Assembly: GCA_903864915.1 (NCBI GenBank) | Contig: CAIPHS010000007.1 | Location: 15,146 to 79,145, forward strand | Length of the DNA: 64,000 nt | Source: an uncultured Candidatus Woesearchaeota archaeon | GTDB taxonomy: Archaea; Nanobdellota; Nanobdellia; UBA10117 | Direction: 5' to 3' | In this document: piece after piece, positions 1 to 42,844 of the stretch | Numbering within the stretch: position 1 is the stretch's first letter | Layout of the letters: every line of letters starts with the position of its first letter | The notes under the pieces: generated by a model | Database searches by the model: none | The model's input: the letters and a program-made list of their open reading frames with translations, nothing else | Told to the model about the DNA's origin: nothing | Position numbers and translations under genes: made by a program

Positions 1-490
1 AGCTTTCGGAATTGTCTGTAGCGCTGCAACTGAAATCTGCAGACGTCAATGTGTCTCCAACATAAATTGTGCTGGTTCTTGTGCTTACAAATGAAACTAT
101 TACTGGAGCAGTATTATCTATATGAAAAGCTACTGTGTTGTTACCACGCATGCCAAACCGGTTTGAAGCATTAACCAGCAGCGTATAATTTCCATCAGCT
201 AGTGAGGATATATCAAAACTTTTGGACCAAATACCGTTGCTGGCATGGGTCATGTTCACGTAAGAACCATTTGCACTTGAATTTCTCCATTGATAGGTGG
301 CTGTGTGTGCTGTGCCGCTAATGTTTGCAGTTACAGTAAGGGCTGAACTGTACCAGCCATTTAGAATTGGAATATTTATGGCAACTATTGGTGGCGAGGC
401 TATGGAAACCCTGCCTGCTATGGTATCTCCTGTCGCATATGCTGCTGTAAAAAGCAACAGGCATGCCGCAATTAAAACTAGAACTTTCAT
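1..490 (-). CDS. secreted S/T/N-rich surface protein (partial; C-terminal part lies beyond window start)
   Basis: ATG at 490..488 (minus) opens MKVLVLIAACLLLFTAAYATG signal peptide, then N-x-S/T-rich sequence open to the window edge. 4-nt ATGA overlap with the upstream gene. Not in the ORF track because it is truncated. Confidence 0.5.
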   Translation of the reverse strand, partial: MKVLVLIAACLLLFTAAYATGDTIAGRVSIASPPIVAINIPILNGWYSSALTVTANISGTAHTATYQWRNSSANGSYVNMTHASNGIWSKSFDISSLADGNYTLLVNASNRFGMRGNNTVAFHIDNTAPVIVSFVSTRTSTIYVGDTLTSADFSCSATDNSES

Positions 491-1305
491 CCTTCCGCCG
501 CCGAAAATGTAATAGCATTTGAACAGAAACCGCCAACTCCGCTGTCTGGGAGCTTTATTTTCCAATAAACATATTTGCTGGAAACTTCGCCATCTGATTT
601 TGCAACATTTAGATCCAGAGTTGTTTCATCTGCGGTAAGCTCGGTCATGCTGCTGTAAGACTGACCTGAACTTGAACTATAACGTGCCGCTTCAGGGGAT
701 ATAACGCCTGAAGAGCAGGTAAAAGCAGTTCCAGACAGGTTTGCATCAATCTTCACATTTCCCACATTTCGTACTGTTGTATTGACGTCATCCGAAGATG
801 TATTACCTAATGCCAATGTCCCAAAATCCACTTCACTCTCCACCACATCCAATGCGATAAGCGACTTTACGTTTGCATTATCCGAGTTGCTGGCTGCGTC
901 ATTTGTTGCATTATAACTATAAATTTTGCAAGTCCACTGGCTAGGATTTGCATAATACTGCAGGGGAAAACTACATGTTACTGGACGTTCTGTCGAAGAG
1001 GTATTATCACCTAAACTGCAGGATGTATTCGTATAATGGTTGGAACCATTGTTTTCCGAAGATTCATTATAATCCAATGCATCCCAAAACACAGCACTAA
1101 CATTGCTTATGTTTTCCCAACTATTAGAATCTGATATTGTCGCTGAGCATTCAACTGTTTTGGTGCTATCTAGCTTCAAATCAATCGGGCTTGGGTTTAT
1201 TGTTACGCTGCCAACAGTCTGGCTGCCTGCATGCGCAATAGGTATCACTAGCAGCAGCAAGATTGCCAAAAGCAATCTCACTTTTTCCTTCTTAAGAAAA
1301 CCCAT
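487..1305 (-). CDS. secreted S/T/N-rich surface (glyco)protein, paralog of 1925..2788
   Basis: N-terminal signal peptide (LLLAILLLLVIPIAHA). Many N-x-S/T sequons. Shares the 'VTCSF' motif region with 1925..2788. Confidence 0.6.
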   Translation of the reverse strand: MGFLKKEKVRLLLAILLLLVIPIAHAGSQTVGSVTINPSPIDLKLDSTKTVECSATISDSNSWENISNVSAVFWDALDYNESSENNGSNHYTNTSCSLGDNTSSTERPVTCSFPLQYYANPSQWTCKIYSYNATNDAASNSDNANVKSLIALDVVESEVDFGTLALGNTSSDDVNTTVRNVGNVKIDANLSGTAFTCSSGVISPEAARYSSSSGQSYSSMTELTADETTLDLNVAKSDGEVSSKYVYWKIKLPDSGVGGFCSNAITFSAAEG

Positions 1306-1924: not shown

Positions 1925-2788
1925 CTATGCCGTTGCGGCAATGGTTACGGTATTATTACAGGCTCCAACAGCTCCACTACTTGGTGTCAAGATAGTGAAG
2001 AATTCTTGATCTGTAATATTCGTACCACTACTTACAGCTAAGCTAAAGCCTGTATCTTTCGTTGCGGTTGCGTTCAGCACATTACTAGACATCGAGTCAT
2101 AGTTTCCAGTATTAGCGCTGTATCTTGTGTTGTTAACATCTATGCTTCCGACGTCACAGGTATAATCATCGCCTTTGTACGTTGTTCCTAGCACTAAATT
2201 ACCTAAGTTTTGTATGGTTACATTTGCCGGATCAGTGCTATTTGTACCGGGTGCCATGTCGCCAAACTCTATGGTGCTATCCAGTACATCAAAAGCCAAC
2301 AATATGCTCACATCCCGATTAGCTGTTGCGTCCGAAGCGCTATGTGTACCATCTGTTGCAGTTATGTTTGCTGTCCATGTTCCTGGCATAGCCATGTATC
2401 CAATTGTAAATGAACAAGTAACAGTTTTATTGTAGTCACCCGTACCATTTGTTATAACACAATCACTGTCGGATGTGTGGTTGTTCGCATTATCGGATTC
2501 GCTATCAGAGCCGGTAAGATATAATGTTGCACTTGCGCCAGTGATATCTGCACCGCCGTCATAGTCTGTTACAGTTGCATTTGCCGTCACTACTGCGCCG
2601 GTTTGGCCTGTTTCCATAGTTATATTCGCATCTGCACCATGCTCGTTCCATACCATCACGTCAGCAATTGTAGGCGCGAAACCGCTTATTGTAACCTTGC
2701 CCGCAGGTGTTGTTGTTGCATATGCTCCAGCCGTAAAAATTGCTATAGCTAAAGCTAAAATCACAAAACTTATTGCTATTTTTTTCAT
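1925..2788 (-). CDS. secreted S/T/N-rich surface (glyco)protein, paralog of 487..1305
   Basis: Signal peptide MKKIAISFVILALAIAIFTAGAYA. N-x-S/T rich. Shared 'VTCSF' block. Confidence 0.6.
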   Translation of the reverse strand: MKKIAISFVILALAIAIFTAGAYATTTPAGKVTISGFAPTIADVMVWNEHGADANITMETGQTGAVVTANATVTDYDGGADITGASATLYLTGSDSESDNANNHTSDSDCVITNGTGDYNKTVTCSFTIGYMAMPGTWTANITATDGTHSASDATANRDVSILLAFDVLDSTIEFGDMAPGTNSTDPANVTIQNLGNLVLGTTYKGDDYTCDVGSIDVNNTRYSANTGNYDSMSSNVLNATATKDTGFSLAVSSGTNITDQEFFTILTPSSGAVGACNNTVTIAATA

Positions 2789-2887: not shown

Positions 2888-3529
2888 TCAGGCCTTGAAC
2901 TCGCCCCAATCTTCAAAGCCGTCGAGTCCTTTTGCTTTGACGAAAAGTTTCCCATTCTCGCGCTTGACGAAGACAATGTAATCCATCATGTGCTCCATCA
3001 TGACTATGACATCAGGGGTATGCATACCTTCTTCCAATGTAAAGAAGGCGGAGCCGCCAGCCTTCTTGATCTTGGCTATGACCACCTGTACAAAACGACC
3101 TATGGCTTGCGGGTTTGAATACATCAGCATGGTGGAAAGGGAGTTGAAAACTATGCAGTGTTTCGGGCTTTTCCTGAAAAACTCCTTCTCTATGTCTGAA
3201 AGCGCCACTGAAATCTCATTTAATGCCAAAGGACCAGGCACCCGCTTGATAGAAGAAGTGTTCTTCACAGCCTCGCCAACATGCATGGAATAGCAGTCTA
3301 TAAACGCCAGCAAGCCCTTTGATTCTGCGTCACCGAAGAAAATCTTTTCCTTTACCAGTTCGTTCTTGAAATCTTCTGCGGACTTGTCGGTGGAAATTAT
3401 CAGCACAGGCACTTTTTCTTTCAAATCATCCTTTATGCTGCTACTTACGAGAACTTCTTTGCCCTCCAGCGGCGGGCTTATCACAACCACTGCCGAGTTT
3501 TGCGGTATTTTTTCAAGTATCATCGTCAC
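2888..3529 (-). CDS. KaiC/RecA-like domain protein with degenerate P-loop (no Walker A)
   Basis: Shares blocks with the N-domain of 5132..6409 (LAFIDCYS vs FAFFDAYS; CIVFNSLSTM vs LIFDALSTL). No GxxxxGKT. 4-nt overlap with the PAS gene. Confidence 0.5.
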   Translation of the reverse strand: MTMILEKIPQNSAVVVISPPLEGKEVLVSSSIKDDLKEKVPVLIISTDKSAEDFKNELVKEKIFFGDAESKGLLAFIDCYSMHVGEAVKNTSSIKRVPGPLALNEISVALSDIEKEFFRKSPKHCIVFNSLSTMLMYSNPQAIGRFVQVVIAKIKKAGGSAFFTLEEGMHTPDVIVMMEHMMDYIVFVKRENGKLFVKAKGLDGFEDWGEFKA

Positions 3530-4764
3530 CTTTTTGTTTTTTCAGCTGTGATGTCACGGACTGTTGCCTGAAGGAGTTTTTTGCCGCCGATTTCCAGCCG
3601 AGTCAGCAGAACTGTGGCTAGGAAATCTTCGCCACCAAGTCTCTTGTGCATCCATTCAAAGAAATTCCTGCCAGTCTTCATCGCCTTGAGTATCATCTTC
3701 TTTGCCTTGACAGAAGAAAGCTGCCCATCAAGCTGGTATTTTGGGGAGAATTCCCAGGGCGCTCTTGAAGCAAAATCTTTTTCGTTTTTTGCCCCGAACA
3801 TGTTTATTGCAGCAGGATTTCCCTCAGTAAATTTCCAAGTTGGAGGAGCCAGCGTCATGATTGCATCGCTTGACGACTCAAACAAGGCGCGGTATTTTTC
3901 CTCGCCTTCATGGATATACCTCTCAGCCATCTTTTCTTTGGTAATGTCCCTTACTATCCCCATAACTGCTACAACTTTTCCTTCACTATTTTTGACTGGG
4001 TTCAAGCTGGTGCTGTTATAGAACATCTTTCCACCAACAGCCATTTCTTCTTTTAGGAACTTGCTCTTGCCAGTTTTGATAACTGCATTAATGTTTTTTG
4101 CGAACCTAGTAAAAGTCTCTTTTGGGAATGTGCTCGCTATAGGTTTACCAATTACTTCATTAGGCGATACGTGCGACATTTTTGCTGCAGCCATGTTCAG
4201 AGAAATATATCTCAATTTTGTATCCAGCAAAAATATCTGATCTGATGCGCTTTCTACAATAGTTCTGTATTTTTCCGCGCTTTCTTTCAAAGCTTCTTCA
4301 GCTTTCTTTAGTTCAGTCACGTCCCTGAAGACGCCCGCAAGATACTTTTTCCCATTTAGCATAAGAGGGAAAGAATTTACATCTGCGTAAAAAACGGAAC
4401 CATCCTTTCTTTTGACGGGTAATCCAGGTGCAATTCCTATCTCTTTTCTGGCCTGCTTCTCAAACTGGCGTATAACATACGGCAAATCTTTCTTAGGATG
4501 TATGTCAGTCACACCAAGTTTCTTCAGTTCATCTAGGGTATAGCCCAACATACGTAATATTGCCTCATTGCCGATGCTAAATTTCATAGTGCTTGTATCT
4601 GCCAAAATAACACCATCTGGAATACTTTCAAAAATTGTCTCGAATTTTTCCTCGCTTTCCTTAAGCGCTTCGATTTTCTTTTTTAAAGTATGCACTAATG
4701 TTACGTTCAAACCAAGGTATCCTTCCTTTGCTCTGTCTTCTTCGTGTTTTTCCATGTTCATCAT
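3526..4764 (-). CDS. multi-PAS-domain sensor protein (no output domain)
   Basis: Repeated PAS/PAC-like blocks across 412 aa. Operonic overlaps on both sides. Confidence 0.65.
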   Translation of the reverse strand: MMNMEKHEEDRAKEGYLGLNVTLVHTLKKKIEALKESEEKFETIFESIPDGVILADTSTMKFSIGNEAILRMLGYTLDELKKLGVTDIHPKKDLPYVIRQFEKQARKEIGIAPGLPVKRKDGSVFYADVNSFPLMLNGKKYLAGVFRDVTELKKAEEALKESAEKYRTIVESASDQIFLLDTKLRYISLNMAAAKMSHVSPNEVIGKPIASTFPKETFTRFAKNINAVIKTGKSKFLKEEMAVGGKMFYNSTSLNPVKNSEGKVVAVMGIVRDITKEKMAERYIHEGEEKYRALFESSSDAIMTLAPPTWKFTEGNPAAINMFGAKNEKDFASRAPWEFSPKYQLDGQLSSVKAKKMILKAMKTGRNFFEWMHKRLGGEDFLATVLLTRLEIGGKKLLQATVRDITAEKTKR

Positions 4765-5132
4765 CCAAGCAAGTGCTCAGCCTGCTTAGCTGCCTTGTTC
4801 AGCTCTAATCTCATCAAACCAAGATTGACACTGCGTTTTGCCAGACATACGAGAATTGCAAGCTCGCCAGCCCCGATAGAAACTATTTTACCTCTTTCAG
4901 CATCAAGTGTTATTTCATTTAATTTGCCACAACCAAGCTCAGATACAGCAGTCTCTGCTGCGCCCTGCATGGCTGCAGACATGGCGGCAAATGTCTCTTC
5001 ATCCACTTCTTTCGATATGTCTGCTGCAATTATTAGGCCGTCCCGGCTGACTACCGCAGAACTTTGAATGTCGCTGACTTTTCTCAGCCCTTTTAGAATC
5101 TCAACCAGCTTGTCTTGTTTTGTTTCTGCCAT
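4761..5132 (-). CDS. Roadblock/LC7 (MglB-like) domain protein
   Basis: SAVVSRDGLIIAADI...ETFAAMSAAMQGAAE is the classic Roadblock fold sequence. Start taken at MAETKQ (5132..5130), which overlaps the upstream stop by ATGA. Confidence 0.7.
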   Translation of the reverse strand: MAETKQDKLVEILKGLRKVSDIQSSAVVSRDGLIIAADISKEVDEETFAAMSAAMQGAAETAVSELGCGKLNEITLDAERGKIVSIGAGELAILVCLAKRSVNLGLMRLELNKAAKQAEHLLG

Positions 5133-6409
5133 CACACAACAACCTCTAACAATGCGCTGAACACTTTTTGCACGTCTTCGCTTTTCAATTGGCAAGGCTT
5201 GCCTTCCTTTACATCTGCCATATTTTCTGCAACAACAGGAATTACTGGAACATTTGCAGGCAACTTCATTTGCTTCCGGATTGCATCAACAGTCAATGCA
5301 CCTTTCATGTTGGCTTTATTCGCCACCACAACAACAGGCAAGTCTACGGTATTTGACAACTTCACCATCTCCTTAGCCCTGCCAAAATCTTTGGGCATGG
5401 TGCTGTCAATTACAACAACGACACCAAGGGATTCCCCACCCAGAAGTTCAAGTATCGGATCAAATCTTTCCTGCCCCGGCGTGCCAAACAGGTCCACTTC
5501 ATAGCCTTTGTACTCCACATGGCCGTGGTCCAAGGCAACAGTAGTGCCGAGCCTGTTGACTGATACTGCTTTAGTGGATGCAGAATGCACAAAAGAAGTC
5601 TTGCCTGCGTGATATGGCCCAGTTACCAGAATTTTAGGAATAAAGACCCTGACGCCGCCAGGTTTTATGATTTTGAAAGGTATGTCCTTCCGCTCAAAAG
5701 CCTGTGGGGCCTTGACGACGCTGAAATATTTCTGCAAAATCACGCTTCTTTCAAGCGCCTTTATCTCGATAACACATTCGAAAAGAGATTTTATCTTGTT
5801 TGTCAGCGACTTTGGATAAAGCCATTCGGTAAACAGGAAAAAGGATATGGTGTTGTATTTGCGCACCTCGCTTAGGAATTTCTTTATTCCAGCCAGAACT
5901 TCATCTTCGTTTTTTGTGCTGTCAATAAGTGTGGATAGGGCATCAAAAATCAGGATTATATTATCATTCTCCAGTTTTGCAAGCACTTCAGGCATAACCT
6001 CGCTCAGCTGCTGCATATTCTGCGGCTCGCTGGAGTAATATTCTGTGCCAGACTTCAAGGAAAGCATGGCTGAATAAGCATCAAAGAACGCGAACGTGCC
6101 CTGCCGCTGGTAATCTCCCAAATCCCAGCCATATTCTTCAGCAAGCAACTTTACAGAATTAGGCAATTTATTATTCACTAAATAAACACCATGGTCGCCT
6201 GCTTTCAGCCTGTTGAAAAGCGTCTGTAAAGCGAATTCCACATTCTCCACCCCTGGTTGAGAACAGAGCAGCACTGTGCTTTGCGGCTTTAACCCACCAC
6301 AAAGAACATCATCCAGTTTTGGGACGCCAGTAGCAACCATATTATACTTTTTCCCTTCCGTAAAATCTAATTTATGCTTTCTTGCTATTTTTTCTTTGGA
6401 GAATGCCAT
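5132..6409 (-). CDS. fusion protein: degenerate KaiC/RecA-like N-domain plus C-terminal Ras-like small GTPase domain
   Basis: C-terminal P-loop VTGPYHAGKTSF, DLFGTPGQERF (DxxG-Q), ANKAN (NKxD-like). N-terminal GVPKLDDVLCGGL...CSQPGVENVEF (KaiC-like, Walker A lost). 5' end overlaps 6385..7515 by 25 nt, so the start may be internal. Confidence 0.65.
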   Translation of the reverse strand: MAFSKEKIARKHKLDFTEGKKYNMVATGVPKLDDVLCGGLKPQSTVLLCSQPGVENVEFALQTLFNRLKAGDHGVYLVNNKLPNSVKLLAEEYGWDLGDYQRQGTFAFFDAYSAMLSLKSGTEYYSSEPQNMQQLSEVMPEVLAKLENDNIILIFDALSTLIDSTKNEDEVLAGIKKFLSEVRKYNTISFFLFTEWLYPKSLTNKIKSLFECVIEIKALERSVILQKYFSVVKAPQAFERKDIPFKIIKPGGVRVFIPKILVTGPYHAGKTSFVHSASTKAVSVNRLGTTVALDHGHVEYKGYEVDLFGTPGQERFDPILELLGGESLGVVVVIDSTMPKDFGRAKEMVKLSNTVDLPVVVVANKANMKGALTVDAIRKQMKLPANVPVIPVVAENMADVKEGKPCQLKSEDVQKVFSALLEVVV

Positions 6410-7515
6410 CTTCCCCCACGAGTGGATAGCTTGCGCTTAGGTCGCTTTGCAACGAAAAACAAAACCAGACCGATAACAGCAAAAAGCAGCAGGGATATTG
6501 CGCTTAATGAAAGCGGCACTGCTTTCTGCGCTTCTACATTGATTTGCTGCTCCGCTGTTGCTGATTTGTCAAATATGACATAACCCCTAATCTCATAATT
6601 TCCAGATGCAGATGTTGTAAAGTATGTTGTCAGATTTGCAGTCTGGCCTGAAGCCACAATAACCTTATCACTTTCCACTTGTTCAGTTTGCAAATCATTT
6701 TTTACATTGGCTTTAAGTTGTGCTAGCACAGCATTTGCGCCCGTATTTTCAAAAACTGCGGTAATTATTGCTGGCTTGCCAACTTCCAAGCTTGAAATTT
6801 GAAGATTTTGCAGTTTGCCATCAGAAGATTTTCCTAGGCTTACAGGTATGCTTTCCTGCCTCAAAAGCTCGTTTCCAACATAAACTGAAGCTTTTACAGT
6901 GTAAACGTTACTAGATAATGAGTTTGCTGGAAGTTTGGTCTCTATCGTTGCAGTTCTGCTAGGTAAGATTTCAACATCAGTCGTATCGGCGCTTAGTTGC
7001 GCATCTTGCAATTCGAGAGATAACTTTGGAGTTATGTTTAAATTGCCAGTATTCTCAACATCTGCCAGGCCAACAATCTTGCCATCTTGCTCAAAAACTT
7101 CTATGCTATTGACTTGTGCCTGAATAATCTGCTTTTGAGTAACTTCGATTAGAACTTTTGTTGTCTGCGCAGGCCCGATATAGCCTGTTGCGCTATCAGA
7201 ATTTGGCTGGTCTGTAATTACGTACGCGATGTAAGTTCCGGGCAAGGCTTCTGCAGGAGGCTTCACCATGACTCTGGCCTTTAGCGGGAAGTTGGCATTT
7301 GCATAACCTTGCGACGGACTTACAACAATCCATTTTGCTGCGGGACCTGCGGTTGACAGAATAATAGCGGTAGACTCGTTAGAAGTTATTGGAAGTGTGA
7401 TTTCTGAAAATCCACCAGGCAAAACATTCTCAAATCTCAAGTCCACCGGAGCTGTTAAGGCGTAACTGCTGCCAAAAATAAAAAGGAGAGCTAGCAATGC
7501 CCAGTACTTTTGCAT
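6385..7515 (-). CDS. cell-surface protein with signal peptide and C-terminal TM anchor (S-layer-like)
   Basis: N-terminal MQKYWALLALLFIFGSSYALTA. C-terminal LSAISLLLFAVIGLVLFFVAKRPKRK. Confidence 0.55.
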   Translation of the reverse strand: MQKYWALLALLFIFGSSYALTAPVDLRFENVLPGGFSEITLPITSNESTAIILSTAGPAAKWIVVSPSQGYANANFPLKARVMVKPPAEALPGTYIAYVITDQPNSDSATGYIGPAQTTKVLIEVTQKQIIQAQVNSIEVFEQDGKIVGLADVENTGNLNITPKLSLELQDAQLSADTTDVEILPSRTATIETKLPANSLSSNVYTVKASVYVGNELLRQESIPVSLGKSSDGKLQNLQISSLEVGKPAIITAVFENTGANAVLAQLKANVKNDLQTEQVESDKVIVASGQTANLTTYFTTSASGNYEIRGYVIFDKSATAEQQINVEAQKAVPLSLSAISLLLFAVIGLVLFFVAKRPKRKLSTRGGRWHSPKKK

Positions 7516-7731
7516 ACAACTAATTTTTTCTAAAATATTATATGGGTTTTTTGCGAACTATGTTAGGATTAAGCCATTATTCTCCTTAAACAGAGAGAAA
7601 AAAGCGTTTAATAAAAACAGAAAAAAACTCTTCTTGATGGCTACAATAGTACCTTTGACGGATATTGCGAGTGTCGTCATTGGCGTGATTTTGCTTCTTT
7701 ACGTCTGGAAAACCAGATCGAAATTGAAAAA

Positions 7732-8340
7732 ATGGATATTGAGAGGTTCTGCCAAATGGACAAAGTAAAGAAGTATGCAATCATGGGATTCGTAGGGGCC
7801 CTGATTTTGATTTATGTAATGGTTTTTAATTTTCCGGACCAGATGGCAAGATTTGCGCTGTTTCCTGAAAAGCTTGCATCCGGCGAATACTGGCGCATCC
7901 TGACGTTCCAATTTTCACATCTCAACAGCACACACCTGCTCGAGAACATTGCAGGTGCAGGGCTTGCAGCTGGGATTGCCACGCAACTGAAAATGCGGGT
8001 AAAAGTCTTCTCATGGACATATCTTCTTGCTGGAGTTCTTGCAGTGATACCTGTTTACCTTGTTGCGCCATTTGTAGCGTTGGGCGCATCCGGTGCAATT
8101 TACGGCGTATTTGGCGCAGTATCTATGGATGCAAAAAAATTTGGCATGGACAGCAGAATCCTGATTGGCCTGCTTGCTGCAGCAATACTTACTCCAATCC
8201 TATTCGTCAAAGACATAGCAAACATACAGCAAGGTGCTGCACACTTTGCCGGCCTGGTCATAGGCATTGTGCTATTTTTGTCTTATGATAAAGTAATGGG
8301 AGCATTCACGAAAAAAAGGAGGCGCGTATTGCGAGGTTAA
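7732..8340 (+). CDS. rhomboid family intramembrane serine protease
   Basis: Multiple TM segments. GASGAIYGVFGA (GxSG) and downstream AHFAGLVIG (catalytic His helix). Confidence 0.75.
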   Translation: MDIERFCQMDKVKKYAIMGFVGALILIYVMVFNFPDQMARFALFPEKLASGEYWRILTFQFSHLNSTHLLENIAGAGLAAGIATQLKMRVKVFSWTYLLAGVLAVIPVYLVAPFVALGASGAIYGVFGAVSMDAKKFGMDSRILIGLLAAAILTPILFVKDIANIQQGAAHFAGLVIGIVLFLSYDKVMGAFTKKRRRVLRG

Positions 8341-8341
8341 C

Positions 8342-9061
8342 ATGGAACGTGTAAAAACAGGTATAATTGGTTTGGACAAGATGTTAAACGGCGGATTTTT
8401 GCAGGGCAGGAATATTTTGCTTTCAGGGCCTGCCGGCACCGGCAAGACAACATTCGCTGCACAATTTCTGTATAATGGTGTCATGAAATTCAAGGAGCCC
8501 AGCCTTTACGTAACTCTTGAAGAATCCGGCGACAAGATCTTCGAGGACATGGCCAAGTTTGGTTTCAACCTGAAAAAGGCGGAGAAAAAAGGATTTTATG
8601 TGATAGGTGGGCCAATCGCCAACCTCACATCATACATGGAGAAAGTTGACGCCAAGGTTTCTGACATAATTGCAGAGATAAAAGAAGTCATAGAGCAGAA
8701 GAAAATAAAGCGTGTTGTAATAGATTCGATAAACTTGTTTACAATGCTGCTTGAAAAAGAATCTAACAGAAGGCGTGCGCTTGCCGCTCTGGGAAACATG
8801 CTTTCTTCATCGGGCTGCACATCAATCATGACTTCAGAAACCAAGGAAGGCAGCATGGCGCTTTCCAGATACGGAATAGAGGAGTTTGTTGTTGACGGCG
8901 TCATAGTATTATATCTGGCAAGGCAAGGCCCACAATTTGTGCCTGGCGTCGCCATCAGGAAGATGCGTGGCACCGCGCATGAAAAAGACATCAAGCTGTA
9001 CAGAATCACAGATAAGGGCATAGTTGTATATCCAGATGAAACCCTGTTCACAGGAATCTAA
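8342..9061 (+). CDS. KaiC-like RecA-superfamily ATPase (single domain)
   Basis: GIIGLDKMLNGGF...SGPAGTGKTTFAAQF (Walker A). RVVIDSIN (Walker B). Confidence 0.8.
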   Translation: MERVKTGIIGLDKMLNGGFLQGRNILLSGPAGTGKTTFAAQFLYNGVMKFKEPSLYVTLEESGDKIFEDMAKFGFNLKKAEKKGFYVIGGPIANLTSYMEKVDAKVSDIIAEIKEVIEQKKIKRVVIDSINLFTMLLEKESNRRRALAALGNMLSSSGCTSIMTSETKEGSMALSRYGIEEFVVDGVIVLYLARQGPQFVPGVAIRKMRGTAHEKDIKLYRITDKGIVVYPDETLFTGI

Positions 9062-9843
9062 TGCATACCTAAATTATAAAGAGCCTCAAGTGACTTCACA
9101 AAACTCTTGTTAGCTATCCAGATTCCCAAGTCTCTGCCATAATGCATGCTGTCATCATCAGGCACAGGCTCAATAAACAATGCATTCTTGTCATCTGCCA
9201 CAATCAAAGTGCTGTGTGCCTTGTCCACATGCTTGCAAGTGCAGCCATTCAGATGCGGGAAAGACTTGTCAACTCCGAACGGAGCCATGATATTTACTTT
9301 TACACCACGGGATTTGGCAGCCTGGATGTGCTGTGCCATGAGCTGCAATCTGTCAAGCCCTGCGGCAGTCGTGACTATGCAAACTTTTTTCTGGGCATTC
9401 TCTATAATTTCCTGAGCTTTCTGATTTACCGCAGACCTGCCGTTCAGTATCCAAAAATTATTTTGCGGCTCGTTGAATTTCTTGTGCTTGCTGAACAAAG
9501 GCTCCAGCTGGTCAATCAGCAATGATTCTATTTTTGAAAGCTTGTCCTGCGTAGTTTTCTTGATTCGCACCAGGCTCTCCTTCGGAGAAATTGCAGAATA
9601 TTTTGCAGGCTTGGTGGGCAAGATTTGAACAAAACCTTTTCTCGCCAAGCTGTCGATAACCTCATACACCTTGCCGTAAGGTATGCTCGTTATACTACTG
9701 ATGGTTTTTGCAGTTGTCACACCTTCAGAAATCAATGATAAGTAAACCCTGGCCTCATAGCGATTCAATCCCAATTCTAATAATGTGGATTCTACCGCCT
9801 GCTGGCCAGATTTGACGCCAATCTCAGATAAGTTCTGGGCCAT
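9058..9843 (-). CDS. TrmB family transcriptional regulator
   Basis: N-terminal LGLNRYEARVYLSLISEGVTTAKTISSITSIPYGKVYEVIDSLARKGFV is the TrmB winged HTH. Confidence 0.8.
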   Translation of the reverse strand: MAQNLSEIGVKSGQQAVESTLLELGLNRYEARVYLSLISEGVTTAKTISSITSIPYGKVYEVIDSLARKGFVQILPTKPAKYSAISPKESLVRIKKTTQDKLSKIESLLIDQLEPLFSKHKKFNEPQNNFWILNGRSAVNQKAQEIIENAQKKVCIVTTAAGLDRLQLMAQHIQAAKSRGVKVNIMAPFGVDKSFPHLNGCTCKHVDKAHSTLIVADDKNALFIEPVPDDDSMHYGRDLGIWIANKSFVKSLEALYNLGMH

Positions 9844-10020: not shown

Positions 10021-10506
10021 TTACTCAGCGTCAGCTGCTACAACCGGTAATAACATATTGCAAACCGGCACGGCAAAGGCTGTGCATGATTGAGCTGTTA
10101 CAACATTTACTCTCGCAACATCGCCGAATTGCAGGTCACAGGAATAACTTGCTGCGCCAGTAACCGTCAATTCCGCGCCACTTATGTCCATATATTTGGT
10201 ACCTTGGTAACTAGATATAGTTTGTACTCTCATTCTCAGCTGGTTTACGTAAATTGTGTCTGTCGCGCTATTTATTTGGCTTGGATTCACGTATGGCTTA
10301 TCAACGTTAACGAGGCCGTTATAGCTTACTGTGGTGAAACCGTCTGTTAAATAAAATGTGCCAACTACTACATTTCCATTAAATAACACTTCGCCTCCGC
10401 CACCGTCACAAGCAAGCACTGGCGCTGCACTAAATGCAAAAACAAGCGCCATGACTAAACTTCCCAATAAAATTTTTCTCTTTTCCATAGCAAAGAAAGT
10501 ATTCAT
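10021..10506 (-). CDS. secreted hypothetical protein
   Basis: Signal peptide ...LGSLVMALVFAFSAAPVLA. Confidence 0.5.
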   Translation of the reverse strand: MNTFFAMEKRKILLGSLVMALVFAFSAAPVLACDGGGGEVLFNGNVVVGTFYLTDGFTTVSYNGLVNVDKPYVNPSQINSATDTIYVNQLRMRVQTISSYQGTKYMDISGAELTVTGAASYSCDLQFGDVARVNVVTAQSCTAFAVPVCNMLLPVVAADAE

Positions 10507-10549
10507 AAGAACAAAATAAGCTTGCTTTATAAAACAAAAAAAGAGAAAA

Positions 10550-11767
10550 CTATTCTCTACTTTTCACAGATAATCTATCTAATTCTTGTAAATATTTTCT
10601 AGAATCATATTTCCAGGAAGTTGTTTTTGGGTCAAAAAGCTTGTGGTAATGTTGTTTAAGCCAGCCTTTAGTTTTGCCTTCCCAAAAATTCGAAGAATCT
10701 GCGTAGTCAAATAATATTGCCCTATTTACCCTCGTTTTTAACATGGCTTTGCTTATGTCCATAAATACATCTGCAACTAGTTTGCCGTTAGTAACTAATT
10801 CTATCGTAAAAAGATTACGAGGGTCTAAGCAATAAACTACAACGTGCAGAGATTTTTTTGAAATGGTTCTAATCAACTCTAATAAAGTCTGCTCATCTTT
10901 AAGTTTCAATATAAACTGCAAATTGATATTTTCGCGGTATAATGGCCCATAAGCAATACGTATCTGCTGAAGAAAATCTTCAGAGTTTTCGTGTAAATAC
11001 TTCAAAACTTGCTGAATACAACTTACACCTACACCTATCGTGTTTTTCCGTATTTTCAAGCCCTTAACAGATGGGCATTTTTTTGGCAAATAACATACAT
11101 CTTCTCCGAATTTCTCGTTCAATCTTTCCCAAATCTTACGCGGAGATGCAAAGTCTTTCAAGTATTCTGCAGCTGTTAAAACTACGAAAGGTGCGCTAAA
11201 CTTTGTTTTGCGCTCATTGTGCAAATTATCTTTTAGTAAATTTATGAAGCGATCATCGCATGTTTTGATAGCTTTAATGGTGCCGTTTGACGAAATCATT
11301 TCATGAAAAGGTGAATATAAAGCAGTTACGTGCTTAACTTTAAACACTGTGAAATCTTCTATGAGTTTTCTGCTTTTGGCGTCTCTCCAAAAATTACAGA
11401 ACTCTTGAAACATTTCATTAGGTATCTTATAATTAACAAAAAAGCATTCTTGGTGTGTTCTAAAATCAACACCTTTCATCAAGTATATTTTGTACGGGAT
11501 CACATCTAAAAGGGCAGGATTACGTAAGCCGTATACTGTTAAAGCCACACTACTCAAACCTAGCCGCTCAAATTTGATGCTTAGATGATATGTAAAATAA
11601 TGGTTTTCCCTTAGATGTTTGAGCCAACGTTTAATCGTTCTTTCAGAAACTTTTTTGCCCCGTATTGTTATGTTCTGGGCCATCTCCCGCGAATTCATCA
11701 GCTTTTTGTGTAAAGTCAGCCGGTAGATAAATTCGAGAAGTCGCTTATCAAATGCGTGAAGCACCAT
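10550..11767 (-). CDS. hypothetical protein with N-terminal HTH; markedly low-GC gene
   Basis: 405-aa intact ORF. MAQNITIRGKKVSERTIKRWLKHL is HTH-like. About 35% GC versus 42-45% in the flanks. Confidence 0.5.
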   Translation of the reverse strand: MVLHAFDKRLLEFIYRLTLHKKLMNSREMAQNITIRGKKVSERTIKRWLKHLRENHYFTYHLSIKFERLGLSSVALTVYGLRNPALLDVIPYKIYLMKGVDFRTHQECFFVNYKIPNEMFQEFCNFWRDAKSRKLIEDFTVFKVKHVTALYSPFHEMISSNGTIKAIKTCDDRFINLLKDNLHNERKTKFSAPFVVLTAAEYLKDFASPRKIWERLNEKFGEDVCYLPKKCPSVKGLKIRKNTIGVGVSCIQQVLKYLHENSEDFLQQIRIAYGPLYRENINLQFILKLKDEQTLLELIRTISKKSLHVVVYCLDPRNLFTIELVTNGKLVADVFMDISKAMLKTRVNRAILFDYADSSNFWEGKTKGWLKQHYHKLFDPKTTSWKYDSRKYLQELDRLSVKSRE

Positions 11768-11856
11768 CCCTCCATTACTAGCATGTACGGCGATTTAAGC
11801 CTTTAGTTTAGTCTTGCAAATAAATTCTTATATATGTGTTCTAGGAGAGTAGCAGC

Positions 11857-42761: not shown

Positions 42762-42834
42762 ATGGGCTTATAGCCCCATCGTCCAGCGGTCAAGGATACG
42801 AGGCTTTGGACCTCGGGACATCGGTTCGAATCCG
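42762..42834 (+). tRNA. tRNA-Gln (anticodon TTG)
   Basis: Hand-folded: acceptor AGCCCCA/TGGGGCT, D-arm GTCC-AGCGGTCAA-GGAT, anticodon arm CGAGG-CTTTGGA-CCTCG, T-arm ATCGG-TTCGAAT-CCGGT, discriminator A. No encoded CCA. Confidence 0.8.
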
Positions 42835-42844
42835 GTTGGGGCTA

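What the first reader, a model, noticed from the sequence alone, without database searches (positions are those of the whole stretch)
2888..6409. Operon linking PAS sensor, two degenerate KaiC-like domains, Roadblock/LC7 and a KaiC-GTPase fusion
Four minus-strand genes overlap by 1-4 nt. The first is a KaiC-like domain fused to a Ras-like small GTPase (P-loop GPYHAGKTS, DxxG-Q, NKxN). The next three are a Roadblock/LC7 protein, a multi-PAS sensor, and a second KaiC-like domain lacking Walker A. Roadblock plus small GTPase pairs (MglA/MglB-like) are known in archaea. Fusion of the GTPase to a catalytically dead KaiC/RecA domain, coupled with a PAS sensor and a free dead-KaiC paralog, looks like an undescribed signalling switch. 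It lies next to a surface-protein gene, which hints at a motility, polarity or surface-structure link.
Basis: partly seen in the sequence, partly recalled or inferred. Interest (0 to 1): 0.65.

Follow-up and report, generated by a model that had tools for sequence, protein, structure and literature searches.

The report
Archaeal pseudo-KaiC–GTPase/Roadblock sensor module
This is a real operon and one copy of a gene module found in many archaea, in which a small GTPase fused to a dead KaiC-like domain is always paired with a Roadblock protein, a second dead-KaiC protein and interchangeable sensor proteins; it is probably a G-protein-type signalling switch that nobody has tested experimentally.

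Summary
Four translationally coupled minus-strand genes (6409..2888) encode a KaiC-fold domain fused to a small GTPase, a Roadblock/LC7 protein, a three-PAS protein with no output domain, and a free KaiC-like protein.

AlphaFold and Foldseek confirm both folds. The KaiC domain lacks Walker A and the catalytic glutamates in about 240 homologues. The GTPase motifs are nearly invariant.

This is not a one-off. The fusion forms about 100 clusters at 50% identity, in DPANN archaea, Methanoperedens, ANME-2, Archaeoglobales, Hydrothermarchaeales and Thermofilaceae. In 85 independent loci:
- fusion→Roadblock is tightly adjacent 56 times;
- dead-KaiC→fusion 30 times;
- Roadblock→PAS 12 times;
- PAS→dead-KaiC 7 times.

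Sensors (PAS, dCache-HAMP, V4R) vary between loci. A TrmB regulator and a rhomboid plus active-KaiC pair recur nearby in DPANN.

The GTPase domain carries the TTVAxDxG…LFGTPGQxRF hallmark of actinobacterial conservon GTPases (CvnD type). The Roadblock is closer to CvnB than to MglB.

Best reading: an archaeal analogue of the conservon or MglA/MglB switch, built on a pseudo-KaiC scaffold. The suggested surface or motility link is specific to this lineage and weak. Databases give only generic names. The one paper that might describe the module (Makarova 2017) could not be read.

The parts
5132..6409 (-). Fusion protein, 425 aa: an inactivated KaiC/RecA-like domain followed by an MglA/CvnD-type small GTPase domain
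   Evidence: Pfam and NCBIfam. AF2 pLDDT 86.8, pTM 0.76. More than 1000 full-length homologues. A GGGGG Shine-Dalgarno-like run lies just upstream of the ATG at 6409.
5639..6337 (-). Inactivated KaiC-like domain of the fusion (residues 25-257). The degenerate Walker A QPGVENVEF lies at 6259..6233.
   Evidence: Foldseek to the KaiC-like ATPase PH0284 (2dr3): TM 0.86-0.89 normalised to the target, rmsd 2.3 A, E 8e-21. The Walker A position reads PG[VI][ED]N..F with no GK[ST]. The catalytic EE is replaced by NN or SS, in both the DPANN and the euryarchaeal clade.
5135..5638 (-). Small GTPase domain (residues 258-425). G1 GPYHAGKTS at 5620..5594; G3 DLFGTPGQ at 5494..5471; G4 NKAN at 5320..5309.
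   Evidence: AF2 of the domain alone: pLDDT 90.5 with Ras-like beta/alpha order. Foldseek: Arf/Arl E 4e-11, MglA 3t1o E 9e-10. G1, T289/T290, D306, G309-G312 and N364 are invariant in 120 homologues; Q313 and K365 are present in 119 of 120. Shares TTVAxDxG…LFGTPGQxRF with CvnD-type GTPases.
4761..5132 (-). Roadblock/LC7 protein, 123 aa, starting 1 nt inside the fusion's stop codon. Predicted GAP/GEF-type partner of the GTPase domain.
   Evidence: PF03259 E 5e-15. Best solved relatives: Roadblock/LC7 domain proteins 9jue, 7f8m, 7yh1 (E 3e-13 to 1e-9), CvnB5 3leq (2.5e-6), MglB only 0.04. Fusion→Robl is tightly adjacent in 56 loci.
3526..4764 (-). Cytoplasmic sensor protein with three tandem PAS domains (125-aa period) and no output domain
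   Evidence: TIGR00229 E 3.5e-53 with 3 matched stretches; no other domain. An 18-nt motif repeats at 375-nt spacing, marking the start of each PAS unit. Robl→PAS adjacent 12 times and PAS→iKaiC 7 times in other loci.
2888..3529 (-). Free degenerate KaiC-like protein (DUF7504 type), 213 aa, last gene of the operon
   Evidence: PF24336 E 1.9e-10, PF06745 E 2e-8. P-loop remnant SPPLEGKE; Walker B Asp→Asn. A homologue lies immediately upstream of the fusion in 30 loci, or after the sensor gene in DPANN loci.
6385..7515 (-). Secreted protein, 376 aa, C-terminally membrane-anchored. Overlaps the fusion's start by 25 nt and is probably the first gene of the transcript in this lineage only.
   Evidence: ORF and sequence. 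Only weak Ig-like/BACON hits. Conserved in this position only in close relatives L013, L014, L020, L021. AT-rich TATA-like element at about 7535-7550.
7732..8340 (+). Rhomboid intramembrane protease, divergently transcribed. A recurrent neighbour of the module in DPANN.
   Evidence: PF01694 E 2e-14. A rhomboid plus KaiC pair lies next to the module in L016, L017, L020, L021, L034, L035, L038 and L065.
8342..9061 (+). Canonical single-domain KaiC-like ATPase with an intact Walker A (GPAGTGKT), coupled to the rhomboid gene
   Evidence: PF06745 E 1.3e-66. TIGR03880 E 3e-52. Alignment to the fusion shows what the fusion has lost.
9058..9843 (-). TrmB-family transcription regulator. A candidate output or regulator of the module.
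   Evidence: PF01978 E 4e-21 and PF11495. A TrmB gene lies directly upstream of the fusion, same strand, in at least 7 DPANN loci, and within a few kb in others.

Best explanation
The operon encodes a cytoplasmic G-protein-type signalling module. It is an archaeal analogue of the actinobacterial conservon and of MglA/MglB.

The switch is the C-terminal small GTPase of the fusion protein. Its nucleotide state is set by the Roadblock/LC7 protein encoded immediately downstream, acting as a GAP and/or GEF.

The GTPase is permanently tethered to a KaiC-fold domain that has lost ATPase chemistry. That domain, together with the free degenerate KaiC-like protein, forms a RecA/KaiC-style hetero-oligomeric platform.

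The PAS-only sensor has no output domain of its own. It docks on this platform, or on the Roadblock, and converts ligand, redox or light status into a change in the GTP/GDP state.

The GTP-bound form then acts on an effector. The most recurrent candidates are the nearby TrmB-family transcription regulator and the active KaiC ATPase/rhomboid pair.

Shown here:
- the domain identities and folds;
- the loss of ATPase motifs;
- the strict conservation of the GTPase motifs;
- the conserved gene order and coupling;
- the interchangeability of the sensors.

Inferred:
- all protein-protein contacts;
- the direction of signal flow;
- the GAP/GEF role of the Roadblock;
- the identity of the output.
For: 1. 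Translational coupling: 1-4 nt overlaps.
2. Conserved core in 85 independent loci. Tight same-strand adjacencies: fusion→Robl 56, iKaiC→fusion 30, Robl→PAS 12, PAS→iKaiC 7, dCache-HAMP→iKaiC 3, Robl→V4R 5, TrmB→fusion 7.
3. The module occurs as a bare iKaiC-fusion-Robl(-V4R) unit among housekeeping genes in Methanoperedens and Archaeoglobales, so it is self-contained.
4. The sensors differ between loci (PAS, dCache-HAMP, V4R) and none carries a kinase or another output domain. This fits input modules feeding a common switch.
5. GTPase motifs are invariant or nearly so across 120 homologues, while the KaiC Walker A, catalytic Glu pair and Walker B are degenerate family-wide.
6. Both folds are confirmed.
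7. The GTPase domain's only plasmid-borne relatives are 'ATP/GTP-binding proteins'. Those inspected lie in a Streptomyces conservon (sensor kinase, roadblock, DUF742, GTPase) and in a Deinococcus GTPase-roadblock pair. They share TTVAxDxG…LFGTPGQxRF with the window's protein.
8. Stand-alone archaeal GTPases related to this domain exist; one of the two inspected is followed by a Roadblock gene.
9. The Roadblock protein matches CvnB5 (E 2.5e-6).
Against: - No interaction, GTPase activity or phenotype has been measured, and no multimer prediction could be run.
- In the window the G4 specificity motif is NKAN, not NKxD (N in 84 and D in 35 of 120 DPANN-clade sequences; D in 118 of 120 euryarchaeal-clade sequences). 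Nucleotide specificity may therefore be altered.
- The output is unidentified. TrmB and the KaiC/rhomboid pair are recurrent only in DPANN-type loci and are absent from the Methanoperedens-type loci.
- Of 26 loci with at least 6 kb downstream, 13 had no recognised sensor gene within 8 kb downstream.
- The correlation between the numbers of Roadblock genes and sensor genes per locus is only moderate (r = 0.53, n = 26).
- The free KaiC-like protein keeps a GK remnant and could still bind nucleotide, so 'pure scaffold' may be too simple.
Confidence: 0.55

Rival explanations
1. The module regulates a cell-surface structure (adhesion, pilus or polarity). As MglA/MglB steers type IV pili in Myxococcus, the GTPase here would control export, anchoring or processing of the flanking secreted proteins, perhaps through the rhomboid protease.
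For: - The window's operon is flanked on both sides by genes for secreted or anchored proteins, and the upstream one overlaps the fusion's start.
- A rhomboid plus KaiC pair recurs next to the module in DPANN.
- T2SSE/T2SSF pilus genes lie 4-8 kb away in L015 and L031.
- Roadblock genes were reported to occur often in archaeal type IV pilus loci (PMC4858521).
- Some DPANN loci insert a small 3-TM protein between the fusion and the Roadblock.
Against: - The surface-protein neighbours are shared only by the closest relatives.
- Methanoperedens and Archaeoglobales modules lie among housekeeping genes: ribosomal protein S19e, Cys-tRNA synthetase, gyrase B, TatC.
- Pilus ATPases are near only 2 of about 85 loci.
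- The GTPase is of the CvnD type, not the group-1 MglA type.
Confidence: 0.15
2. The module is an accessory of a KaiC-centred phospho-signalling or timing hub. The dead KaiC domains would co-assemble with, or cap, the active KaiC ATPase encoded nearby. The GTPase, the Roadblock and the PAS protein would serve as input or output adaptors of that hexamer, not as an autonomous G-protein switch.
For: - An intact-Walker-A KaiC lies 2 kb away in the window and within 7 kb in 8 of 26 loci that have at least 5 kb on both sides.
- In L007 and L088 the active KaiC sits in the same gene string as iKaiC and the fusion.
- Inactivated KaiC-like domains (iKaiC, DUF835, MEDS) fused to signalling domains are described in archaea (PMC5847659).
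Against: - Most loci have no active KaiC within reach (18 of 26).
- No KaiB/KaiA-like gene was detected.
- The strongest purifying selection is on the GTPase motifs, which argues that GTP switching is central.
Confidence: 0.15
3. The fusion is not a signalling protein. It would be an assembly or chaperone NTPase, for example one that inserts a cofactor or assembles a complex, and the PAS and Roadblock genes would be unrelated neighbours.
For: - Weak Pfam similarity of the G-domain to PF03029 (the GPN-loop/ATP_bind_1 family).
- Housekeeping neighbours in some lineages.
Against: - Roadblock adjacency is near-universal, and sensor domains recur.
- The relatives inspected in bacterial plasmids lie in a conservon or in a GTPase-Roadblock pair.
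- No metallochaperone or client genes are conserved nearby.
Confidence: 0.05

Closest known systems
Actinobacterial conservon (CvnA-D of Streptomyces; Mfp of Mycobacterium)
   Same: - An operon combining a sensor protein, a Roadblock/LC7 protein and a small GTPase of the same subfamily.
- The window's G-domain is 34% identical to a Streptomyces CvnD-type protein and shares TTVAxDxG…LFGTPGQxRF.
- The Roadblock matches CvnB5 (3leq) at E 2.5e-6, better than any MglB.
- No response regulator is present, so the GTPase is the likely output stage (PMC4316618).
   Different: - The sensor is a soluble PAS-only protein with no histidine-kinase/HATPase domain.
- No DUF742 (CvnC) protein is present.
- The GTPase is fused to a dead KaiC domain, and a second dead-KaiC protein is present.
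- The system is archaeal, not actinobacterial.
MglA/MglB polarity switch (Myxococcus xanthus, Thermus thermophilus)
   Same: - A Ras-superfamily GTPase with a PGQ-type G3 that lacks the Ras Asp57 equivalent.
- It is encoded next to a Roadblock-fold partner. MglB is the cognate GAP and also has GEF-like activity (PMC11016934, PMC6785124).
- Foldseek hit to MglA 3t1o at E 9e-10.
   Different: - MglB matches the window's Roadblock only weakly (E 0.04; NCBIfam MglB 19 bits against a cutoff of 200).
- G3 reads GTPGQ, not the group-1 TxPGQ.
- There is no bacterial G1-G2 insertion.
- The pseudo-KaiC fusion has no counterpart in MglA.
- No conserved link to motility genes was found.
Archaeal KaiC-like ATPases and inactivated KaiC (iKaiC) signalling domains (ArlH, CirA, GvpD; arCOG01175, DUF835, MEDS)
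   Same: - The KaiC/RecA fold (TM 0.86-0.89 to PH0284) and Pfam PF06745 membership.
- Loss of catalytic motifs, as in described iKaiC domains that are fused to REC, PAS or HalOD1 (PMC5847659).
[quoted passage not shown]
   Different: - Here the partner domain is a small GTPase.
- The obligate neighbours are a Roadblock protein and a second iKaiC.
- No accessible paper describes this architecture. The 2017 mBio paper on KaiC hubs could not be read.
Ragulator-Rag and Asgard GTPase-Roadblock/longin architectures
   Same: Small GTPases regulated by, or fused to, Roadblock-fold proteins that act as scaffolds (PMC10933270). The window's Roadblock is most similar to solved Roadblock/LC7 domain proteins 9jue, 7f8m and 7yh1.
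   Different: - Those GTPases are Rag/Arf/Rab-like and are fused to Roadblock or longin domains, not to KaiC.
- Asgard GTPase genes are mostly not in operons with their regulators.
- Here the operon structure is the rule.

Membership tests
Ras-superfamily small GTPase | G1 P-loop GxxxxGK[ST] | tested here: met
   GPYHAGKTS at residues 264-272. G264, G269, K270 and S272 are invariant in 120 homologues.
Ras-superfamily small GTPase | G2 switch-I threonine and G3 DxxGQ | tested here: met
   T289 and T290 are invariant. G3 is the variant D306-L-F-G-T-P-G-Q313. Q313 is present in 119 of 120. The Ras Asp57 position is Gly309, as in MglA/CvnD-type proteins.
Ras-superfamily small GTPase | G4 NKxD guanine-specificity motif | tested here: not met
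   The window has NKAN. The DPANN clade has N in 84 and D in 35 of 120. The euryarchaeal clade has NKxD in 118 of 120. From general knowledge, D→N changes in this motif shift specificity towards xanthine nucleotides. Not testable here.
Ras-superfamily small GTPase | Six-stranded beta-sheet / five-helix G-domain fold | tested here: met
   AF2 of the domain alone: pLDDT 90.5, pTM 0.88. Foldseek against PDB: Arf/Arl E 4e-11, MglA E 9e-10, TM 0.55-0.74.
Ras-superfamily small GTPase | GTP binding and hydrolysis | not testable with these tools
   Needs biochemistry.
MglA family (non-group-1, CvnD/COG2229-like) | PGQ-type G3 without the canonical Asp, plus a switch-I TTVAxDxG signature | tested here: met
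   Alignment A3 with Streptomyces and Deinococcus 'ATP/GTP-binding proteins' and stand-alone archaeal GTPases. T, T, V, D, G, G-T-P-G-Q, R and F are invariant.
MglA family (non-group-1, CvnD/COG2229-like) | Genomic coupling to a Roadblock/MglB homologue | tested here: met
   Overlapping genes in the window. Robl lies immediately downstream in 52 of 66 loci with enough sequence, and within about 2 kb in most of the others.
KaiC/RecA-superfamily ATPase | KaiC-like fold and Pfam PF06745 above threshold | tested here: met
   78.2 bits against a cutoff of 26.6. 2dr3: TM 0.86-0.89, rmsd 2.3 A.
KaiC/RecA-superfamily ATPase | Walker A GxxGxGK[ST], the catalytic Glu pair and the Walker B Asp (active ATPase/autokinase) | tested here: not met
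   Fusion: QPGVENVEF, NN in place of EE, Walker B D (DPANN clade) or G (euryarchaeal clade). Free protein: SPPLEGKE, TD, Walker B N. Both are pseudo-ATPases by motif.
KaiC/RecA-superfamily ATPase | Hexameric ring assembly | not testable with these tools
   No multimer prediction is available.
Conservon (CvnA-CvnB-CvnC-CvnD) | CvnB-type Roadblock and CvnD-type GTPase in one operon | tested here: met
   3leq (CvnB5) E 2.5e-6. 31-34% identity to the Deinococcus and Streptomyces 'ATP/GTP-binding proteins' respectively, with shared motifs.
Conservon (CvnA-CvnB-CvnC-CvnD) | CvnA membrane histidine-kinase-like sensor | tested here: not met
   The sensor has three PAS domains only: no HisKA/HATPase domain and no TM segment.
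Conservon (CvnA-CvnB-CvnC-CvnD) | CvnC DUF742 protein | tested here: not met
   No PF05331 hit in any window protein. It is present in the Streptomyces comparison locus.
Roadblock/LC7 | Pfam PF03259 domain of about 90 residues | tested here: met
   55.5 bits against a cutoff of 23, residues 11-98.
PAS sensor | PAS fold domains | tested here: met
   Three matched stretches, TIGR00229 179 bits. 125-aa periodicity is visible as a 375-nt DNA repeat. The cofactor or ligand is unknown.

The most novel reading that the evidence does not exclude
Archaea may possess a modular, kinase-free G-protein signalling system.

Output-less sensor proteins (PAS, dCache-HAMP, V4R), often each with its own Roadblock adaptor, would plug into one small GTPase. 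That GTPase is covalently tethered to a pseudo-KaiC platform.

This would be a third archaeal signalling architecture, alongside two-component systems and KaiC ATPase hubs. It would also be a prokaryotic counterpart of scaffolded Roadblock-GTPase machines such as Ragulator-Rag.

In genome-reduced DPANN archaea it may be a principal means of coupling environmental or host cues to TrmB-dependent transcription or to envelope remodelling.
Probability: 0.3. Interest if true: 0.75.

Novelty: new variant of a known kind. Interest (0 to 1): 0.55.

Why it matters
Archaeal signal transduction is poorly understood. Two-component systems are sparse, especially in DPANN archaea with tiny genomes.

A conserved, self-contained module joins a Ras-like switch, its Roadblock regulator, two pseudo-ATPase scaffolds and plug-in sensors. 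This gives a concrete system that can be tested biochemically. It links three themes that have so far been treated separately:
- KaiC-like 'hubs' in archaea;
- MglA/MglB and conservon G-protein signalling in bacteria;
- Roadblock-scaffolded GTPases in eukaryotes and Asgard archaea.

It also offers a natural experiment in nucleotide specificity: NKxD in Euryarchaeota against NKxN in most DPANN.

Tried and rejected
- Literature. The paper most likely to mention the fusion (Makarova, Galperin, Koonin 2017, mBio 8:e01959-17, PMC5717392) is not held under its DOI, PMC id or PubMed id. Ten full-text searches found no paper that combines KaiC with MglA/MglB, or KaiC-like, GTPase, archaea and inactivated. 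The V4R paper PMC2253512 mentions neither GTPase nor Roadblock.
- Active KaiC domain in the euryarchaeal fusions. A regex found GxxxxGK[ST] in the first 100 residues of 74 of 120 sequences. It turned out to be the N-terminal 'GGGIPKGKS' turn, not Walker A. The true Walker A position reads QPGVEGE or DPEVEGD. Rejected.
- Deinococcus neighbour. The 234-aa hypothetical protein upstream of the Deinococcus GTPase-Roadblock pair might have been a bacterial iKaiC. It has no Pfam hit. Not supported.
- Anti-phage defence. PADLOC gave nothing meaningful.
- Small proteins. The proteins between the fusion and the Roadblock in some loci might have been DUF742-like. They are about 105-125 aa with hydrophobic segments that look like 3 TM helices and have no Pfam hit.
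- Bacterial sigma-70 promoter and terminator scans were not used, because the organism is archaeal.

Full report
**Observation**

The region 2888-6409 holds four minus-strand ORFs, as described:
- 6409..5132, 425 aa;
- 5132..4761, 123 aa from the ATG that shares one base with the preceding TGA;
- 4764..3526, 412 aa, with an ATGA overlap;
- 3529..2888, 213 aa, with a GTGA overlap. An alternative ATG lies at 3523, behind a GGTGA motif.

The sequence was read directly.

Pfam and NCBIfam assign the domains:
- The first protein has a KaiC domain (PF06745, residues 25-257, 78 bits against a cutoff of 26.6). A small GTP-binding domain follows (TIGR00231, residues 258-400, 52.5 bits against 42.5, with Arf and Ras hits).
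- The second is Roadblock/LC7 (PF03259, E 5e-15).
- The third has three PAS domains and nothing else.
- The fourth matches DUF7504 and KaiC.

Two refinements are needed. The last protein keeps a P-loop remnant, SPPLEGKE, and so does not lack Walker A outright. The upstream 376-aa secreted and anchored protein (7515..6385) overlaps the fusion's start by 25 nt. The only AT-rich promoter-like element lies upstream of that gene. In this lineage the transcript therefore probably has five genes.

**Folds**

AlphaFold2 with a 56-sequence alignment gives the fusion a pLDDT of 86.8 and a pTM of 0.76.

Foldseek matches the N-terminal half to the single-domain KaiC-like ATPase PH0284 (2dr3): TM 0.86-0.89 normalised to the target, rmsd 2.3 A, E 8e-21. 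It also matches cyanobacterial KaiC.

The C-terminal 171 residues modelled alone give a pLDDT of 90.5 and the canonical Ras-like order of strands and helices. Their best PDB matches are Arf/Arl GTPases (E 4e-11), with MglA (3t1o) at E 9e-10.

**Active and dead sites**

Across 120 DPANN-clade homologues the G-domain is nearly invariant at G1, at switch I (SVxRxGTTxALDHG), at G3 (DLFGTPGQERF) and at the NK of G4.

The KaiC domain reads PG[VI][ED]N..F where Walker A should be, and Asn-Asn where the catalytic Glu pair should be. The euryarchaeal clade is equally degenerate: QPGVEGE or DPEVEGD at Walker A, and Gly at the Walker B Asp position. An apparent Walker A found by regex was a false positive from the GGGIPKGKS turn.

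The free KaiC-like family keeps [GS]PP[LM]xGK but mostly replaces the Ser/Thr with E, D or K. Its Walker B is Asp or Asn in equal shares.

G4 is NKxN in 84 of 120 DPANN-clade proteins, including the window's. It is NKxD in 118 of 120 euryarchaeal-clade proteins.

**Distribution**

The fusion is not rare.
- A word-indexed search returned 1180 hits at E ≤ 1e-5. The best 120 are all full-length, about 405 aa, 45-85% identical, and where named are called only 'GTP-binding protein', 'ATPase domain-containing protein' or 'hypothetical' in Nanoarchaeota, Woesearchaeota and Altiarchaeales MAGs.
- An exhaustive profile search of 1.84 billion representatives found 151 clusters at E ≤ 1e-30, about 100 of them full-length fusions. 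It also found stand-alone GTPases of about 160-190 aa that match only the G-domain part of the profile.
- One of the two stand-alone GTPases inspected is followed by a Roadblock gene; the other is not.
- Genome and protein searches add Methanoperedens, Archaeoglobales (including sequences labelled Archaeoglobus veneficus), ANME-2, Methanosarcinales, Hydrothermarchaeales and Thermofilaceae.

**Gene neighbourhood**

I analysed 98 fetched loci with jackhmmer profiles seeded from the window's proteins. Among 85 non-redundant fusion loci:
- A Roadblock gene lies immediately downstream in 52 of 66 loci with enough sequence, and within about 2 kb in most of the rest. The intervening gene is often a 105-125-aa protein with three hydrophobic segments, or a sensor.
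- Tight same-strand adjacencies (gap ≤ 120 nt): fusion→Robl 56, iKaiC→fusion 30, Robl→PAS 12, PAS→iKaiC 7, dCache-HAMP→Robl 5, Robl→V4R 5, dCache-HAMP→iKaiC 3, TrmB→fusion 7.

Two layouts exist.
- Methanoperedens, Archaeoglobales and TACK archaea have iKaiC→fusion→Robl, sometimes followed by V4R, embedded among housekeeping genes.
- DPANN archaea have (TrmB→)fusion→Robl→[sensor cassettes]→iKaiC, often beside a divergent rhomboid plus active-KaiC pair.

The window follows the DPANN layout exactly. TrmB is at 9843..9058, KaiC at 8342-9061 and rhomboid at 7732-8340.

The sensors are interchangeable (PAS, dCache-HAMP, V4R) and none carries a kinase or another output domain. Loci with several sensors tend to have several Roadblock genes, but the correlation is only moderate (r = 0.53, n = 26).

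**Family placement of the switch**

The G-domain's only relatives in 72,556 plasmids are 'ATP/GTP-binding proteins' of Streptomyces, Rhodococcus, Deinococcus and Thermus.

The Streptomyces hit sits in a textbook conservon: ATP-binding sensor kinase, roadblock/LC7, DUF742, ATP/GTP-binding protein. The Deinococcus hit sits in a GTPase-roadblock pair.

The alignment shows the shared hallmark TTVAxDxG…(L/V)(F/Y)GTPGQxRF.

The window's Roadblock matches CvnB5 (3leq, E 2.5e-6) far better than any MglB (E 0.04). Its best matches are solved Roadblock/LC7 domain proteins 9jue, 7f8m and 7yh1.

Wuichet and Søgaard-Andersen classified prokaryotic small GTPases, describing the Ras superfamily as single-domain proteins of typically 160-180 aa. 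[quoted passage not shown] A 400-aa fusion would probably have fallen outside that survey.

**Mechanism**

The best-supported reading is a kinase-free G-protein signalling module.
- The Roadblock sets the nucleotide state of the tethered GTPase.
- The two pseudo-KaiC units form the platform.
- PAS, or another sensor, supplies the input.
- TrmB and/or the active KaiC-rhomboid pair are candidate outputs in DPANN.

Domain identities, motif status and gene coupling are shown. All contacts and the direction of signal flow are inferred.

Three rivals remain open at lower probability: a surface-structure or motility regulator, an accessory of an active-KaiC hub, and a non-signalling assembly NTPase.

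**Novelty**

Each ingredient is known:
- MglA/CvnD-type GTPase with a Roadblock partner;
- inactivated KaiC domains in archaeal signalling (PMC5847659; arCOG01175 in the supplement of PMC4858521);
- PAS sensors.

The specific, widely conserved combination is not described in any paper I could search. That combination is an iKaiC-GTPase fusion with a free iKaiC, a Roadblock and plug-in output-less sensors. Databases carry only generic names for it.

The 2017 mBio paper on KaiC-like hubs could not be read. It may mention the fusion, because the family is found in Archaeoglobales (including sequences labelled Archaeoglobus veneficus), a group with long-sequenced genomes.

I therefore rate the finding as a new variant of a known kind, with moderate interest.

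Noticed in passing
window 7732-9061 (+); also L016, L017, L020, L021, L034, L035, L038, L065: A rhomboid protease gene and an intact-Walker-A single-domain KaiC gene are coupled (the stop and start codons are adjacent). This pair recurs beside the GTPase module in several DPANN lineages. Rhomboid plus KaiC may be a functional pair in its own right, for example regulated intramembrane cleavage of anchored surface proteins.
   Followed up: partly
window 5309-5320 (G4 motif of the fusion): The guanine-specificity motif is NKAN. N replaces the canonical D in 84 of 120 DPANN-clade homologues, while 118 of 120 euryarchaeal-clade homologues keep NKxD. This may be a clade-wide shift in nucleotide specificity or affinity.
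   Followed up: partly
window 5552-5554 (Arg286 of the fusion, switch I): Arg286 is invariant in 120 fusion homologues. Stand-alone archaeal and bacterial relatives have K, S, or another residue there. It sits in the low-pLDDT switch-I loop and could be an intrinsic arginine finger. This is speculative.
   Followed up: no
L024 2323-2664, L031 11262-11636, L034 2456-2767, L035 11238-11558, L045 9109-9486: In a subset of DPANN loci, a conserved 105-125-aa protein lies between the fusion and the Roadblock gene. It has three hydrophobic (apparently transmembrane) segments and no Pfam hit. It is absent from the window. It hints at membrane attachment of the module in those lineages.
   Followed up: partly
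window 1925-2788 (-) and 487-1305 (-): The 287-aa and 272-aa secreted proteins downstream of the operon are paralogues: 31% identity over 221 residues, E 4e-30. Neither has a Pfam family. With the 175-aa (1278-1805) and 376-aa (6385-7515) proteins they form a cluster of surface proteins around the module.
   Followed up: partly
window 3892-4659: An 18-nt motif (GTATTTTTCCTCGCCTTC and variants) recurs at exactly 375-nt spacing inside the PAS gene. It encodes the E-E-K-Y/F-R/E cap at the start of each of the three 125-aa PAS units, which points to tandem duplication of a PAS cassette.
   Followed up: yes
window 10500-11800: GC content dips to 0.33, against about 0.43 in the surroundings. The dip lies over a 405-aa ORF (10550..11767, minus strand) that has only weak winged-helix/HTH hits. 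It may be foreign or mobile DNA.
   Followed up: no
window 42772-42844 (+): This single tRNA gene is the only Rfam match above threshold in the 64-kb window. There is no rRNA, so taxonomy rests on protein hits: the closest named homologue of the fusion is from 'Candidatus Nanoarchaeia' at 64% identity.
   Followed up: no
L102 3782-4486 (Deinococcus radiophilus plasmid pRadio1): A 234-aa hypothetical protein with no Pfam hit lies directly upstream of a bacterial CvnD-like GTPase plus Roadblock pair. It has the same size and position as the archaeal iKaiC, but no similarity was detected.
   Followed up: partly
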